This document shows positions 1,081 to 13,609 of a DNA stretch of 31,781 bases, piece after piece (position 1 is the stretch's first letter; each line of letters starts with the position of its first letter). The position numbers and the translations under genes were made by a program. Source of the DNA: a virus (Duplodnaviria; Caudoviricetes); IMG/VR virus record IMGVR_UViG_3300025318_000032, positions 1-31,781 of that record; one strand, 5' to 3'. The notes under the pieces are model-generated. The model saw nothing but the letters and a program-made list of their open reading frames with translations. It made no database searches and had not been told where the DNA came from.

Positions 1081-1106
1081 CTTCCCCTAGTAGTGGGTCA
1101 GTTTGA
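1081..1106 (+). repeat. Left target-site duplication and terminal inverted repeat
   Basis: CTTCCCCT then A-GTAGTGGGTCAGTTTGA. Confidence 0.9.
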
Positions 1107-1154
1107 TTTGCCGGGCCGTTGACTATGCTTGACCGCTAATGCTATCCTTGATGC

Positions 1155-1403
1155 ATGACAACCCCAAAGAAGAGGCGACCCCGCGATATCTCCCAACTTG
1201 CCGCGTCGATTGTGGCGGATGCCACGAGCGAAGAGAAGCCAATATCTGAACCGACGAAGAAGAATCCCGCAGCCGTTGCCCTCGGACGATTAGGCGGACT
1301 AAAAGGCGGAAAGGCCCGAGCGGCCAAGCTATCCGCGAAGAAGCGGAAGGAGATCGCCAAGAAGGCGGCGCAGACACGTTGGGCGAAAACGACCAAGAAG
1401 TAA
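1155..1403 (+). CDS. Small basic 'histone H1-like' protein of the type associated with IS1/IS1595-like elements
   Basis: RPRDISQLA...KNPAAVALGRLGGLKGGKARAAKLS..KRKEIAKKAAQTRW motif; K/R/A-rich. Confidence 0.8.
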   Translation: MTTPKKRRPRDISQLAASIVADATSEEKPISEPTKKNPAAVALGRLGGLKGGKARAAKLSAKKRKEIAKKAAQTRWAKTTKK

Positions 1404-1453
1404 TTTCCTAAACCTAATCTCCCTACTCTTCCCAAGCCGGTGCCCTCCTGATC

Positions 1454-1633
1454 CTAATTCTGAATAATGTCCTCCCGCCGGAACCCTATCGGCATTGGCG
1501 CTTCTTTTCCTGACATCAGCAGACCGAAGCTTTCCTCGTTCACCACATAGATGGTTTTATCGGTTTCGCTCCAAACCCGCCGCTCAAGTTGATCTCCCGT
1601 AAAGGATCTGACCACGACGATATCGCCCCTCAT
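1454..1633 (-). CDS. Small hypothetical protein (59 aa), divergent from the DUF5343-like gene
   Basis: MRGDIVVVRSFTG...PIGFRREDI; AGGGGG RBS upstream of ATG 1633. Confidence 0.6.
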   Translation of the reverse strand: MRGDIVVVRSFTGDQLERRVWSETDKTIYVVNEESFGLLMSGKEAPMPIGFRREDIIQN

Positions 1634-1771
1634 GGCGCACCCCCTTTTTTTAGACATTTTAGTCATGCCAAAAAGCAGATTCAAAAAAAGTCGGTAGACG
1701 GCAGATGGGGTATTGACATACGGATTGTGGCATGAGACTCTACCGGTATAAAAAATTGGAGGTAGACGATC

Positions 1772-2491
1772 ATGACGAAGGGCGAAACTGATGGGGGCCG
1801 GAAGCCTGTTCCTCCGTACGTCGCCTACAAATCATTTAAGAACTTCGTGGACGGGCTGCGGGGTCACGGTCTCCCTGGTCGTATTGACCGAAGCGTCATG
1901 GGAAGCCTCTCTGGCGCAACACAAACCAATATACTTCATGCACTGCGTTACTTGAAATTGACAGCAGATGACGGCAAGCCTACGGAGAAATTGACAAATC
2001 TAGTCAAGGCTCAGGGTGAAGAAAAGCAAAAATACTACAATGGTATTGTAAAGGAATCATATGTTTTTCTTTTTTCAGAAAATTTTGATCTTAAAACCGC
2101 TACTTCTAGGCAACTTGATGAGAGGTTTGAAGGGCTAGGTATTTCAGGTGATACAATACGTAAATGCGTTGCTTTCTTTATATCTATAGCAAAGGATGGG
2201 GACATACAACTTTCAAAATATATACAGAAGATACGACGACAAAGGCAACCAGGCGGAACACGCCAGAAAAAGACACATGGTCAACAGGGAAACAACGGCG
2301 CAAAGGGTGGTGAGCAAGAATTTCAGCATAGTGGTGACGAGAAACCACCCGAAGGAATGGTTCGGATACCGATATCTATTGGTATTGGCAAAATATGGAC
2401 TCTTACAATGAATCAAGACTACAACGTGGAGGATGTAGATCGGTTTGTACAAATTGTGCGCATTACATTGGGTCTTGGGGAAAAGAAATAA
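1772..2491 (+). CDS. DUF5343-like putative DNA-binding protein
   Basis: PPYVAYKSFKNF..LPGRIDRSVM..LSGATQ..ALRYLKL N-terminus recalled as DUF5343-like; GGAGG RBS; AT-rich. Confidence 0.65.
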   Translation: MTKGETDGGRKPVPPYVAYKSFKNFVDGLRGHGLPGRIDRSVMGSLSGATQTNILHALRYLKLTADDGKPTEKLTNLVKAQGEEKQKYYNGIVKESYVFLFSENFDLKTATSRQLDERFEGLGISGDTIRKCVAFFISIAKDGDIQLSKYIQKIRRQRQPGGTRQKKTHGQQGNNGAKGGEQEFQHSGDEKPPEGMVRIPISIGIGKIWTLTMNQDYNVEDVDRFVQIVRITLGLGEKK

Positions 2492-2569
2492 TGATTTCCC
2501 CTAGGAAGGAGGATCGGTAATGAAATTATTAGTGACAGGGCATCGCAGGGAGGCCCGTAAAAAACAAAG

Positions 2570-2612
2570 TGGGTGAGACGGAGTAGGCTTGGCGGTCCGC
2601 TCGTCTCACCCA
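2570..2612. ncRNA. Hairpin with UUGGCG loop (+) / CGCCAA loop plus U-tract (-)
   Basis: TGGGTGAGACG (2570-2580) pairs perfectly with CGTCTCACCCA (2602-2612); loop TTGGCG 2589-2594; followed on the minus strand by CTTTGTTTTTT. Confidence 0.65.
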
Positions 2613-2645
2613 TACCCTGCCCCCGTTAGGGGGTCACAACCTGGT

Positions 2646-2729
2646 GCCCGTGTGGTGAAACTGGCAAACACGGCGGTCTTTAAAATCGCTGGCTGGCCGG
2701 CCTTGTGGGTTCGAGTCCCACCACGGGCA
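2646..2729 (+). tRNA. Leu-type class II tRNA with UUA anticodon (putative ochre suppressor)
   Basis: Acceptor GCCCGTG/CACGGGC; D arm GTGAAACTGGCAAACAC; anticodon stem GCGGT/ATCGC with loop CT-TTA-AA; long variable arm; T arm GTGGG-TTCGAGT-CCCAC; discriminator A; CCA not encoded. Confidence 0.8.
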
Positions 2730-2735
2730 CCTTTA

Positions 2736-2765
2736 TTTATAACCCACGGTTGTATCCCGTGTCAA
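2736..2765 (-). promoter_or_regulatory. Sigma70-like promoter reading antisense into the tRNA
   Basis: Minus strand TTGACA (2765-2760), 18 bp, TATAAA (2741-2736). Confidence 0.55.
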
Positions 2766-2807
2766 GATGCATTTCCGCTCAAGCATAGCGGGGGCAGAAA
2801 ATACTTG

Positions 2808-2836
2808 TTGACATTGCTTGACCGCTCAAGCATGAT
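2808..2836 (+). promoter_or_regulatory. Transposase promoter with a palindromic operator in the spacer
   Basis: TTGACA 2808-2813, 17 bp, CATGAT 2831-2836; TGCTTGA-CCGC-TCAAGCA at 2815-2832. Confidence 0.6.
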
Positions 2837-2859
2837 GAATACATCAGGCTTGAGGGGGG

Positions 2860-3699
2860 ATGGAGATGAATAGGCTGAGCACGAAGCAGAGGGCGCAAAT
2901 CGTAGCCGCCTTGGTAGAGGGGAACTCGATCCGCGCCACGTCCCGCATGACGGGCGCGGCCAAGGGCACGGTGCTCAAGCTCCTTGCCGATCTTGGCAAG
3001 GCATGCGCGGAGTACCAGGATAAAACCTTCCACAACCTGAACTGCAAGCGCGTCCAGGTCGATGAGGTATGGAGCTTCTGTTACGCGAAGGGAAGGAATG
3101 TCCCTGAAAAATACGAGGATCAGTTTGGGTTCGGTGACGTATGGACCTTCACGGCGATTTGCGCTGATACGAAACTGGTCCCTTGTTGGAAGATTGGCCG
3201 CCGGACCGCTGAGCATGCTGCTGAGTTCATAAATAACCTCGCTGGAAGACTTGCCCACCGAATCCAACTGACATCAGACGGCTACCGAAAATATGTTGAT
3301 GCCGTGGAAAACTCCTTCTCCGGGAACGTCGATTACGCGATGCTGGTCAAGATGTACGGAAGCGAGAACAGCAATAAAAATCCTGACACCAAATATAGCC
3401 CCGCAGAATGCACAGGAACGCGAGTTGCCAAGATCAACGGAGAACCCGATCCGAAATACATATCGACCAGCTATGTGGAACGGAACAATCTTACCATGCG
3501 GATGAGCATGCGCCGATTCACGCGGCTAACGAATGCTTTCTCGAAAAAGGTGGAGAACCTGAGCCATGCCGTGAGCCTGCATTTCATGTACTACAACTTT
3601 GCGCGAATCCATCAGACGTTGAGGGTTACACCCGCGATGGAAGCGGGGGTATCGGATCACGTGTGGTCGGTGGAGGAGATCGCCTCGTTGCTAAACTGA
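2860..3699 (+). CDS. IS1-family DDE transposase (single ORF)
   Basis: N-terminal HTH (LVEGNSIRATSRMTG); acidic motifs QVDEVW, LTSDG, YVERNNLTMR; RRFTRLTNAFSKK. Confidence 0.9.
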   Translation: MEMNRLSTKQRAQIVAALVEGNSIRATSRMTGAAKGTVLKLLADLGKACAEYQDKTFHNLNCKRVQVDEVWSFCYAKGRNVPEKYEDQFGFGDVWTFTAICADTKLVPCWKIGRRTAEHAAEFINNLAGRLAHRIQLTSDGYRKYVDAVENSFSGNVDYAMLVKMYGSENSNKNPDTKYSPAECTGTRVAKINGEPDPKYISTSYVERNNLTMRMSMRRFTRLTNAFSKKVENLSHAVSLHFMYYNFARIHQTLRVTPAMEAGVSDHVWSVEEIASLLN

Positions 3700-3724
3700 C
3701 AATCAGATACCCCTTTCTCAAATA

Positions 3725-4684
3725 CTATTTCCCTACACGTTGATGCAAGTGGGCATTGCCGGGGTACTGAAACAGTCGCTTCGGAGGTGCTACTTGTCCT
3801 GTAGGATTAATAATTAATGCACTGTCCGTGATTGCAAAAACAGCCCCCTCAGAAGTGATTAATAAACCCCTTAACTTAAGGAAATTCCAATTTATTCTCT
3901 CAATCTGAAATATTGGATTTTGCCTTTCATCGACAATTTCAAAGGCAACTGGATCCCAATTTCTGTCCCATCCGCTGTTTATAACAGCGAAATTACTGGA
4001 TTTAATGACCGCAGCAACCTTTCCGCGACTTTCGTATATTGTTGCGTCGATCTTCATGTCGCCGTCTTTATCGAAATAAACCTTTAGTGGGAGATCGCCA
4101 TCAGCCTTGATCCCGATAAGTCTTTCAAATGGCACCTGCCTTTCCAGGAGTTCTGTTGGGAATGTCCCTTTGTTTGTCCCAAACTCAATCGTAAAACTGT
4201 CAGGCACGGTTCGCTTAAACCCTAGACTTTCAGGTGGTACTTCTCGGAAAGTTAACCCTGTATCAACATCTTTTTGTTTCGATTGCGCGGGAGAAGGAGA
4301 TGTTTTACTCGGGTGTGGAGTCTGTTTAGTTTCTGGCTGTGCCTTCTCGGGTTGCCGTGTTGCTTGCGGCGAAGGAATTTCCGGCAGTGTGGTCACCTCA
4401 TCGGTTAGTTTAGGTCGTTCGGCTTGGGCAGGATGTTTTATAGATTGTTTCCATGCCAATCCTGCGGCGATACATCCTACAACTCCTCCAATAATTACAA
4501 TCGGCCATAATGAAACTTTCATGGCTACATACTCCAAGGTAATCGTTGTGAGGCCATATATTAAAAAAGCGATGGCAAAAATCCCAAGAATTAGTCTCAT
4601 CAGAATAGTCCTTGGGGGGAAAACCGCAAACCATATGGTTGCGCCGATACCAACCGATAAGGTGGCGATTTCGCTTCCTTGCAA
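3725..4684 (-). CDS. Passenger membrane protein (about 3 N-terminal TMs, Pro-rich linker, soluble C-terminal domain)
   Basis: Three hydrophobic stretches; TTG at 4684 behind GGGAG RBS; AT-rich. Confidence 0.7.
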   Translation of the reverse strand: MQGSEIATLSVGIGATIWFAVFPPRTILMRLILGIFAIAFLIYGLTTITLEYVAMKVSLWPIVIIGGVVGCIAAGLAWKQSIKHPAQAERPKLTDEVTTLPEIPSPQATRQPEKAQPETKQTPHPSKTSPSPAQSKQKDVDTGLTFREVPPESLGFKRTVPDSFTIEFGTNKGTFPTELLERQVPFERLIGIKADGDLPLKVYFDKDGDMKIDATIYESRGKVAAVIKSSNFAVINSGWDRNWDPVAFEIVDERQNPIFQIERINWNFLKLRGLLITSEGAVFAITDSALIINPTGQVAPPKRLFQYPGNAHLHQRVGK

Positions 4685-4785
4685 ACCTTTTCTCCCCCAT
4701 ACGAGACCGATCCTAATTCGCGCATCATATCGCGGACACCACGCCAAGTGAACAACCATTGCCTGACCTCTCAAGCACACGCATC

Positions 4786-4811
4786 TCAAACTGACCCACT
4801 ACCCTTCCCCT
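4786..4811 (+). repeat. Right terminal inverted repeat and target-site duplication
   Basis: TCAAACTGACCCACTAC-C then CTTCCCCT. Confidence 0.9.
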
Positions 4812-12279: not shown

Positions 12280-12513
12280 TTACTCGTTTCTACTGATCGC
12301 AGCATTACTCCACATCACGGCCTCCTCCAAGTGCGTCAACGCAAGCGACCGCTCGCGGGACGGCGGGCAATTCTCCACGATCCGGAATGCGAACGTCCGG
12401 GCGCGATCCCGGATTAGGTTGTACCGGGGCACTTGGTCGGGCTTCGGCGGGTGGTACGTGAAATCTTTCTCGATGCGCTTGCTATCCTCTTCGGTGATGT
12501 ACGGGTGCGTCAT
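12280..12513 (-). CDS. Acb2/Tad1-like nucleotide-signal sponge (anti-defence)
   Basis: FTYHPP...RERSLALTHLEEAVMWSNAAI motif; GGGAGG RBS; in-frame upstream ATG at 12597. Confidence 0.75.
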   Translation of the reverse strand: MTHPYITEEDSKRIEKDFTYHPPKPDQVPRYNLIRDRARTFAFRIVENCPPSRERSLALTHLEEAVMWSNAAISRNE

Positions 12514-12593
12514 AGCCCCTCCCTTCGTTTTAACAGACTCCGGGAGTTGTTCCTCGATGCGCGGAGCGAGTGCGCCGAAAGTGATCCCGAGTT

Positions 12594-12860
12594 TCATGGG
12601 CGGCCCTCCGCTTTGGCGATGATTGCGCGGAGATCCGCGTTGTCATCGGGGCCTTCATGCCCGTCGAGCCTTGCCACCGCGCTTTTTAGCGCCTCCAGCA
12701 GTTCCGGCGCGGCGGCGATGAGGCGGGCGTTGGCGACCCTCTCGATGCGGGGTGCCCATGCGTCGGCCACTATCTGATTATCGGCACTCAGGATGATGAT
12801 CGCTCCCGGCTGTTCTCGCCAGTCGTGCTCTAATTTCCACGGCCCCGGCGTGTGACTCAT
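12594..12860 (-). CDS. Conserved phage early protein (HTPGPW...ANARLIAAAPELLEAL family)
   Basis: Both signature motifs present. Confidence 0.85.
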   Translation of the reverse strand: MSHTPGPWKLEHDWREQPGAIIILSADNQIVADAWAPRIERVANARLIAAAPELLEALKSAVARLDGHEGPDDNADLRAIIAKAEGRP

Positions 12861-13532: not shown

Positions 13533-13609
13533 TGGTACTCGGGGAGGGAGTCGAACCCTCATGTAAGGCGGGTTTAAGCCGCCCGCGTATGCCATTCCGC
13601 CACCCGAGT
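13533..13609 (-). tRNA. tRNA-Leu(UAA) with a short variable region
   Basis: ACTCGGG/CCCGAGT acceptor; D arm GCGGAATGGCATACGC; GGCGG-CT-TAA-AC-CCGCC; GAGGG-TTCGACT-CCCTC; ACCA encoded. Confidence 0.9.

What the first reader, a model, noticed from the sequence alone, without database searches (positions are those of the whole stretch)
2559..2765. Antisense-RNA architecture over the suppressor tRNA: candidate all-RNA toxin/antitoxin switch
Seen: a minus-strand TTGACA-18-TATAAA promoter fires right at the tRNA 3' end. About 170 nt later it meets an 11-bp-stem hairpin followed by CTTTGTTTTTT. The hairpin loop reads UUGGCG on + and CGCCAA on -. Established: this loop pair is the kissing motif of plasmid antisense systems (R1 CopT/CopA, ColIb-P9 Inc), where the CGCCAA hairpin also ends the antisense RNA. 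Inference: a cis-antisense RNA covers the whole pre-tRNA and silences it. Loss of host transcription or of the element would release the suppressor, giving addiction or anti-phage activity. I know no described system with this layout.
Basis: partly seen in the sequence, partly recalled or inferred. Interest (0 to 1): 0.85.

Follow-up and report, generated by a model that had tools for sequence, protein, structure and literature searches.

The report
Antisense lock on transposon suppressor tRNA
A transposon inside this phage carries a tRNA with an anticodon for the stop codon UAA, bracketed on the opposite strand by a predicted promoter and terminator that recur in dozens of related elements, so an antisense RNA likely keeps a probably toxic tRNA switched off.

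Summary
A minus-strand TTGACA-18-TATAAA sits 7 nt past the discriminator of a leucine-type UUA (ochre) tRNA. An 11-bp hairpin with a minus-strand U-tract lies about 170 nt on. Both are inside a complete IS1-like transposon (1089-4803) in a standard-code phage. The tRNA family is already listed (Mukai 2017, 'tRNA2, tRNALeu 7/5'); I found no report of the antisense layout. The layout is conserved: of 79 homologues without a downstream gene, 46 have the promoter, 44 the reverse terminator and 30 both, against 1 of 98 ordinary tRNA-Leu genes. It held in a later-fetched set. Stem wobbles favour the minus strand (50 against 16). The UUGGCG/CGCCAA kissing loop is not conserved (2 of 52 hairpins, one lineage) and is probably chance. 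Against an obligatory antitoxin: 30 homologues have no such terminator, and tRNA-less sister elements often have a divergent promoter too. No transcript, toxicity or trigger was shown. Best reading: an SdsR/RyeA-like antisense lock on a mistranslating tRNA toxin; an anti-phage role is a guess.

The parts
2646..2731 (+). Leucine-type (7/5, A73, A15:U48, long variable arm) tRNA with UUA anticodon; predicted ochre/amber suppressor and candidate toxin; CCA end not fully encoded
   Evidence: ARAGORN, Rfam; over 110 family members 761 of 770 acceptor pairs are standard, A73 in 108, U48 in 110; same family as 'tRNA2, tRNALeu (7/5)' in the PMC5389517 supplement
2736..2765 (-). Predicted sigma-70 promoter TTGACA-18-TATAAA; start site predicted at about 2728-2731, opposite the discriminator
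   Evidence: Sequence; positional conservation in homologues; kept in sister L266 as TTGACA-18-TATAAG
2559..2612 (-). Predicted intrinsic terminator of the antisense RNA: 11-bp stem, large inner loop, U-tract at 2559-2569
   Evidence: A-tract side and wobble polarity across the family
2559..2730 (-). Predicted antisense RNA of about 170 nt covering the tRNA and its 5' leader and stopping before the upstream protein gene
   Evidence: Inferred from promoter and terminator; predicted lengths 121-231 nt in the 30 homologues with both; no transcript data
2589..2594 (+). TTGGCG in the hairpin loop (CGCCAA on minus); lineage-specific, probably chance
2503..2576 (+). Strong Shine-Dalgarno (2503-2512) and 18-codon ORF (2520-2576) ending at TGA in the 5' arm of the hairpin; possible leader peptide
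   Evidence: kept in L266 with a frame-preserving 3-nt indel; not general in the family
1772..2491 (+). DUF5343 passenger protein (239 aa), likely co-transcribed with the tRNA; exchangeable
   Evidence: Pfam E 2.7e-5, below the curated cut-off; Atlas 0.96; weak PADLOC PDC-M34A hit, E 3.6e-6; replaced by another gene in L266
2765..2788 (.). One of four copies of a near-palindromic operator-like motif (also 1123, 2812, 4757); this copy abuts the antisense -35
   Evidence: D1, I2; the adjacency is clear only in the window type and L266 among 14 IS1-like loci
2866..3699 (+). IS1-like DDE transposase, with its own predicted promoter at 2808-2836, divergent from the antisense promoter
   Evidence: Pfam PF03400; promoter scan; 67 related viral loci
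1089..4803 (.). Complete transposon: terminal inverted repeats 1090-1111 / 4781-4802 and an 8-bp target duplication (1081-1088, 4804-4811)
   Evidence: I1, 91% complementary; flanks printed

Best explanation
The promoter and terminator on the minus strand likely make a 170-nt antisense RNA that would hold down a leucine-inserting ochre-suppressor tRNA, a probably toxic cargo of an IS1-like transposon. Shown by sequence and comparison: the tRNA keeps its cloverleaf and leucine identity marks; the promoter is fixed to the tRNA 3' end; the hairpin is polarised as a minus-strand terminator; the unit covers the tRNA and spares the protein gene upstream. Inferred: the tRNA is the last item of a plus-strand operon that begins at the upstream passenger gene, often a coiled-coil/winged-helix protein and so a likely autorepressor. 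Convergent transcription and pairing of the antisense RNA with the precursor (then probably RNase III cleavage) would set a threshold that removes leaky tRNA. When the plus-strand promoter is derepressed, or sigma-70 transcription of the antisense drops, tRNA would mature, read UAA and UAG as leucine and spoil protein ends. The most likely use is abortive defence or stress dormancy rather than plasmid-style addiction; this last step is a guess. Pairing does not depend on a conserved UUGGCG loop.
For: Promoter score 3-14 nt past N73: class B mean 5.27 against shuffles 2.01 +/- 0.33, 33 of 52 at or above 4.5 (9.3 expected); ordinary tRNA-Leu(CAA) 2.61 against 2.56. Later-fetched metagenome set: 4.84 against 1.73 +/- 0.47, 13 of 27. 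Best -10 within +1..+40 lies at +6 or +7 in 34 of 79. Strong upstream hairpin in 39 of 52 and 22 of 27, with an A-rich 5' side in 28 and 16 and a T-rich 3' side in 5 and 2; controls 19 of 98 with 2 and 10. Stem mismatches that are G.U only on the minus strand: 50 against 16 in 52 hairpins, p 3e-5; control upstream hairpins 5 against 22. After clustering, both features in 16 of 48 against 1 of 71, p 1e-6. The promoter occurs beside IS1-like (13 of 14), IS1595 (12 of 18) and no detected transposase (9 of 24). In 9 of 14 IS1-like loci the best minus promoter of the whole interval is at +6..+10 while the transposase lies 93-260 nt away. No recoding: 16 of 34 window genes and 31 of 43 upstream passenger genes end in TAA or TAG. 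A related missense allo-tRNA killed E. coli when induced (PMC5389517, passage).
Against: No transcript, half-life or toxicity was measured, and this UUA tRNA was not tested in the parts of PMC5389517 that I read. Thirty class A homologues have no strong hairpin (0 of 30) and no promoter enrichment, nor a promoter after their second tRNA (0 of 9), so the tRNA can be carried without the antisense unit. Of 79 class B loci 19 score neither feature and only 30 score both. Promoter alone is a weak separator from controls after clustering (27 of 48 against 22 of 71, p 0.008). tRNA-less sister transposons often have a divergent minus promoter (25 of 49, 12.6 expected; 20 lead to an ORF), so the promoter may be inherited. 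Family tRNA sequences occur in soil and peat metatranscriptome assemblies, which may mean the sense RNA is abundant; strand unknown. The promoter matrix was my approximation from memory, and the +3..+14 window was chosen after seeing the first loci.
Confidence: 0.55

Rival explanations
1. The convergent promoter is selected, but it works only by polymerase collision or occlusion; the antisense RNA is a by-product and the terminator merely protects the upstream gene.
For: No conserved loop or other sequence in the hairpin; both RNAs are heavily folded (-101 and -70 kcal/mol), which slows pairing; SdsR/RyeA uses interference as well as pairing (PMC6610125, abstract).
Against: The start is fixed opposite N73 so that the whole tRNA is covered; interference would not need that precision.
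Confidence: 0.15
2. The minus promoter is the transposon's general cargo promoter; a tRNA cassette landed backwards in front of it and the terminator only insulates. There is no toxin-antitoxin logic.
For: 25 of 49 tRNA-less sisters have a divergent promoter 60-140 nt before the transposase and 20 of them lead into an ORF; promoter scores are highest in IS1-like loci (mean 8.3 against 3.4 with no transposase found).
Against: The promoter tracks the tRNA, not the transposase, and occurs downstream of converging IS1595 transposases (8 of 14); none of the 25 promoter-positive sisters has the A-tract hairpin at the matching distance.
Confidence: 0.12
3. One reading: a kissing-loop antisense system giving post-segregational killing when the element is lost.
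For: The loop hexamer is present and is the ColIb-P9 target motif (title of Asano et al. 1998 seen in two reference lists; the CopA/CopT loop is recalled only); it is unchanged in sister L266.
Against: Hexamer in 2 of 52 family hairpins and 1 of 31 controls; the whole L266 hairpin is identical, so its loop shows no special constraint; addiction needs a stable, activatable precursor pool, for which there is no evidence; class A lacks the antisense unit.
Confidence: 0.1
4. The tRNA is not a decoding toxin but a decoy or processing signal, for example for anticodon nucleases (its loop differs by one base from that of tRNA-Lys(UUU); recalled), and antisense transcription only tunes its level.
For: The anticodon arm sequence is shared between Leu-type 7/5 and Ser-type 8/4 bodies; PMC5389517 found some irregular tRNAs charged but not used in translation (section read).
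Against: The bodies used (Leu, Ser, Ala types) belong to synthetases that ignore the anticodon (established knowledge, recalled), which is what a working suppressor needs; Leu identity marks are nearly invariant.
Confidence: 0.08

Closest known systems
tRNA2 / allo-tRNA polycistrons, 'tRNA2, tRNALeu (7/5)' UUA (Mukai et al. 2017, PMC5389517; passages, one part of the text and supplement rows read; review PMC7609411, passages)
   Same: Same tRNA family: 7/5 Leu body, UUA anticodon, same anticodon arm; proposed nonsense suppressors near transposons and toxin-antitoxin genes; irregular tRNAs in tandem.
   Different: 'antisense' has 0 hits in its main text; no promoter, terminator or two-class regulation in what I read; figures not seen. 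Here the family is traced to IS1-like and IS1595 elements in several phyla and phages.
SdsR/RyeA, type VIII toxin-antitoxin (PMC6610125, abstract; PMC10767807, passages)
   Same: Two RNAs from opposite strands of one locus; sigma-70 antisense promoter; control by pairing-dependent decay and transcriptional interference.
   Different: SdsR is a regulatory small RNA; here the candidate toxin is a tRNA that would act on the ribosome, is cut from an operon and rides on transposons. No Rfam match other than tRNA.
CreTA, type VIII (PMC10767807, passages; mechanism recalled)
   Same: All-RNA pair that acts on translation through tRNA.
   Different: CreT sequesters a host tRNA and CreA represses through Cascade (recalled); no CRISPR repeat or cas gene was seen in this element.
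Plasmid replication antisense RNAs, ColIb-P9 Inc and R1 CopA/CopT (PMC10724649, passages)
   Same: Cis-antisense RNA ending in a terminator hairpin; the window's loop holds the same hexamer.
   Different: Target is a rep leader, not a pre-tRNA; the hexamer is not conserved in this family; no Rfam hit at gathering score.
IS1-family and IS1595-family transposons with passenger genes (ISMhu11-type; recalled)
   Same: Transposase, terminal inverted repeats, 8-bp duplication, passengers upstream of the transposase.
   Different: Cargo is a suppressor tRNA with an antisense unit; a search on these terms listed 3 unrelated papers.

Membership tests
tRNA2 / tRNALeu (7/5) UUA family (Mukai 2017) | 7/5 cloverleaf, Leu marks (A73, A15:U48, long variable arm), UUA anticodon in the family's anticodon arm | tested here: met
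tRNA2 / tRNALeu (7/5) UUA family (Mukai 2017) | Charged with leucine and decodes UAA | not testable with these tools
   Inferred from identity elements only
Type VIII toxin-antitoxin, SdsR/RyeA kind | Two overlapping RNA genes on opposite strands, each with expression signals | tested here: met
   At the level of predicted, conserved signals; transcripts not seen
Type VIII toxin-antitoxin, SdsR/RyeA kind | RNA is toxic and the antisense RNA neutralises it | not testable with these tools
   Needs cloning; class A lacks the antisense unit
Type VIII toxin-antitoxin, SdsR/RyeA kind | Sequence homology to SdsR, RyeA, CreT or CreA | tested here: not met
   Only RF00005 reached a gathering score in the window; I did not check which of these RNAs have Rfam models
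Inc/CopA kissing-loop antisense systems | Conserved UUGGCG/CGCCAA loop pair | tested here: not met
   2 of 52 family hairpins, one lineage; 1 of 31 controls
Inc/CopA kissing-loop antisense systems | Target is the leader of a replication-initiator mRNA | tested here: not met
   Target is a pre-tRNA; neighbours are DUF5343 and a transposase
IS1-family transposon with passengers | IS1-type DDE transposase, terminal inverted repeats, 8-9 bp target duplication | tested here: met
   subgroup assignment not tested
Suppressor tRNAs of stop-codon-recoded phages | Phage genes avoid the reassigned stop as a terminator | tested here: not met
   10 TAA, 6 TAG, 18 TGA among 34 chosen window ORFs, all read under table 11

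The most novel reading that the evidence does not exclude
IS1-like and IS1595 transposons spread a whole class of mistranslating tRNAs (ochre suppressors and mismatched-anticodon tRNAs) as RNA toxins that corrupt the genetic code on demand, locked either by a cis-antisense RNA (class B) or by a winged-helix repressor (class A), and released by phage infection as abortive defence.
Probability: 0.3. Interest if true: 0.92.

Novelty: new variant of a known kind. Interest (0 to 1): 0.76.

Why it matters
It would explain how standard-code bacteria and phages can carry an intact ochre suppressor, a question left open since these tRNAs were listed in 2017. It would add a third kind of all-RNA toxin-antitoxin pair, the first with a working tRNA as toxin, and a rare case of antisense control over a tRNA gene. 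The unit is about 210 bp and the predictions are sharp (start site, end, a single -10 knockout), so it can be tested in E. coli. Cultured carriers of both layouts exist in the loci found.

Tried and rejected
RNA evidence: no RNA holder listed for 1700-3700; all six companion runs were laid and none covered the stretch, which says nothing on expression. Plasmid and phage collections gave only 72-77% matches to the tRNA itself. Relatives could not be drawn for a virus record. My first pattern missed the window's own spacing and was widened. DUF5343 protein scan of viral contigs returned only three identical copies. Rejected: assembly error in a Leu(UAA) gene (110 intact homologues); phage recoding; kissing motif, and YUNR enrichment (33 of 52 against 22 of 31); readthrough feedback on the regulator gene (mixed stops, no conserved extension seen); antisense promoter after the second tRNA of class A (0 of 9 with a T-arm found, of 22 examined); operator beside the antisense -35 as a family trait. 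The 64-codon minus ORF 2613-2419 crosses the terminator and was not pursued. Earlier findings: nothing by sequence, place or the long word query; a short query gave eight notes on other suppressor tRNAs, none on this layout. Literature searches that found no description of the layout: (listings only; open-access library; bioRxiv supplements closed; figures of PMC5389517, notably Fig. 4A and S6, not seen and may bear on the context claim).

Full report
Observation. On the minus strand TTGACA (2765-2760), an 18-nt spacer and TATAAA (2741-2736) point into a tRNA gene whose discriminator is at 2729. ARAGORN and Rfam call the tRNA at 2646-2731 with anticodon UUA. Upstream lies a hairpin with perfect 11-nt arms at 2570-2580 and 2602-2612, z = -4.1 on + and -3.0 on -, followed on the minus strand by CTTTGTTTTTT. 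TTGGCG is at 2589-2594. The built-in scan did not list either site, because its rules need a final T in the -10 and a short loop.

Context. The window is a virus record with terminase, portal and helicase genes. The module lies in a complete transposon, 1089-4803, with 22-nt terminal inverted repeats and an 8-bp target duplication, between a DUF5343 gene and an IS1-like transposase. The phage is not recoded: of 34 chosen ORFs 10 end in TAA, 6 in TAG and 18 in TGA. A sister element, L266, keeps the RNA module and transposase but has another upstream gene, a compensatory pair change in the acceptor stem and the promoter as TTGACA-18-TATAAG.

The tRNA family. I dropped L047, which sits in an ordinary Bacillus tRNA array. 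Across 110 members, 761 of 770 acceptor pairs are standard with many pair types, A73 is in 108 and U48 in 110; A15 was required by my parser. These are leucine identity marks (recalled). The family is in print: the supplement of Mukai et al. 2017 lists 'tRNA2, tRNALeu (7/5)' with UUA and the same anticodon arm, from soil and peat metatranscriptomes. The text proposes nonsense or missense suppressors near transposons and toxin-antitoxin genes, reports death of E. coli on induction of a related allo-tRNA, and does not contain the word antisense.

Two layouts. Class A (30 loci) has a 124-146-aa coiled-coil protein gene directly after the tRNA, with weak helix-turn-helix hits, plus-strand promoter scores within 60 nt upstream, repeated operator-like words seen by eye, often a second irregular tRNA, and an IS1595 transposase in 20 of 22 long loci. 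Class B (52 loci, with L016 standing for the window; L129 moved here by hand because its downstream ORF is unrelated) has no such gene. Because class A is defined by a downstream gene, its lack of a promoter there is partly built in; its lack of an upstream hairpin is not.

The antisense unit is conserved in class B. Using an approximate sigma-70 matrix from memory, the best minus-strand promoter with its -10 at +3..+14 from N73 averaged 5.27 against 2.01 +/- 0.33 in shuffles, with 33 of 52 at 4.5 or more (9.3 expected). Class A gave 2.47 against 2.2, and 98 ordinary tRNA-Leu(CAA) genes (of 120 loci) gave 2.61 against 2.56. The -35 counts peak at +29/+30. A strong hairpin lay within 140 nt upstream in 39 of 52 class B, 0 of 30 class A and 19 of 98 control loci. 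Its A-rich side was 5' in 28 class B cases and its T-rich side 3' in 5; in controls 2 and 10. The window of offsets was chosen after I had looked at the first loci, so I tested it on a later scan of metagenomes: 41 loci, 28 new, 27 with enough flank. There the mean was 4.84 against 1.73 +/- 0.47, with 22 strong hairpins, 16 A-sided and 2 T-sided. Pooled over 79 loci: 30 have both features, 16 promoter only, 14 terminator only and 19 neither; class A 0 of 30 and controls 1 of 98 have both. The best -10 within 40 nt lies at +6 or +7 in 34 of 79, which puts the start site opposite the discriminator. Stem mismatches that pair as G.U only on the minus strand outnumber plus-strand G.U 50 to 16 in 52 distinct hairpins (p 3e-5); control upstream hairpins show 5 to 22. 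After clustering by flank similarity, both features remain in 16 of 48 against 1 of 71 (p 1e-6), the terminator in 24 of 48 against 2 of 71, and the promoter alone in 27 of 48 against 22 of 71 (p 0.008). Predicted antisense lengths are 121-231 nt.

The kissing loop is not conserved. TTGGCG is in the loop of 2 of 52 family hairpins, the window type and L266, and in 1 of 31 control hairpins; CGCCAA is in none; YUNR is no commoner than in controls. L320, a distant sister found through the transposase, shares stem sequence by eye but has another loop and a poor A-tract. The motif is the ColIb-P9 one by the title of Asano et al. 1998, but here it is best read as chance, though it could help pairing in this lineage.

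Is the promoter just part of the transposon? Among 49 tRNA-less sister elements, 25 have a strong divergent minus promoter 60-140 nt before the transposase (12.6 expected), 20 of which lead into an ORF; none of the 25 has the A-tract hairpin at the matching distance. So a general cargo promoter exists and may be the ancestor. But the tRNA-linked promoter also occurs with IS1595 transposases in either orientation (12 of 18) and where no transposase was found (9 of 24). In 9 of 14 IS1-like loci the best minus promoter of the whole interval lies at +6..+10 from N73 while the transposase start is 93-260 nt away. Four other sisters carry other tRNAs (CGG, AGU, UAU, GUA anticodons) upstream of the transposase in the same orientation, each behind an A-tract hairpin, which suggests the layout is not limited to UUA.

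Mechanism. Shown: conserved position and polarity of the signals and an intact tRNA. Inferred: a plus-strand operon ends in the tRNA; a convergent transcript covers the tRNA and stops before the protein gene; collision and pairing remove leaky precursor; derepression or loss of antisense transcription lets an ochre suppressor mature. That 31 of 43 upstream passenger genes end in TAA or TAG fits a tRNA that is normally off. Class A suggests protein repression can do the same job, so the antisense RNA is one of two likely locks and not a universal antitoxin; no promoter was found after its second tRNA either (0 of 9). Whether release serves anti-phage defence, dormancy or addiction cannot be told here. 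I favour abortive defence on general grounds (mobile cargo, a weak PADLOC hit of the DUF5343 protein, and toxin-antitoxin neighbours in a few loci). Confidence in the antisense-lock reading is 0.55.

Comparison and novelty. It works like SdsR/RyeA, an opposite-strand RNA pair controlled by decay and interference (PMC6610125, abstract). TADB 3.0 names that pair and CreTA as the validated type VIII systems (PMC10767807, passages). It is not a member of either by sequence, and toxicity and neutralisation are untested. It fails the membership tests for Inc/CopA systems and for recoded-phage suppressors. Seven searches (listings only) showed no paper on antisense control of a suppressor tRNA; the library lacks most subscription journals, and I could not see the figures of Mukai et al. 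Verdict: real, conserved, a new variant of a known kind; interest 0.76.

Noticed in passing
window 2503-2576 (+); L266: Strong Shine-Dalgarno and an 18-19-codon ORF ending at TGA in the hairpin's 5' arm, frame kept across a 3-nt indel; possible leader peptide. Short SD-led ORFs occur in 22 of 79 class B and 2 of 30 class A leaders, without shared sequence.
   Followed up: partly
window 1123-1143, 2765-2788, 2812-2832, 4757-4777: Four copies of a near-palindromic motif overlap or abut four predicted promoters of the transposon; likely one regulator's operator.
   Followed up: partly
L315, L336, L345, L365 (100-460 nt upstream of the transposase at 2501): Sister IS1-like elements carry other tRNAs, some irregular (CGG, GUA, AGU, UAU anticodons), in the same orientation behind A-tract hairpins; candidate missense suppressors.
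   Followed up: partly
class A loci, e.g. L004, L022, L030, L064, L066, L011, L018, L084: Operon of UUA tRNA, coiled-coil/winged-helix gene and a second short tRNA with a GCU, ACU, ACC or ACA anticodon inside IS1595 elements of Alphaproteobacteria.
   Followed up: partly
L020, L024, L035, L051, L057, L080, L087, L088, L093 (just after the winged-helix gene): In place of a second tRNA, a shared structured RNA-like stretch followed by a conserved small ORF of about 40 codons.
   Followed up: no
L009, L059, L102, L118, L130 (150 nt upstream of the tRNA): Shared structured leader in which a loop sequence is complementary to a stretch just before the tRNA; possible long-range switch on the sense strand.
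   Followed up: no
L129 (downstream) and L071 (upstream): UUA tRNA next to a gene whose N-terminus looks Cas9-like (recalled, not tested) and next to a Cas_GSU0053 gene (Pfam).
   Followed up: no
window 12280-12597 (-), 13533-13609 (-): The phage encodes an Acb2/Tad1-hairpin anti-defence protein (Pfam E 1e-19) and a short ordinary tRNA-Leu(UAA).
   Followed up: no
window 1772-2491: DUF5343 ORF ends TAA-TGA in tandem, which would cap readthrough at one residue; seen in few homologues.
   Followed up: yes
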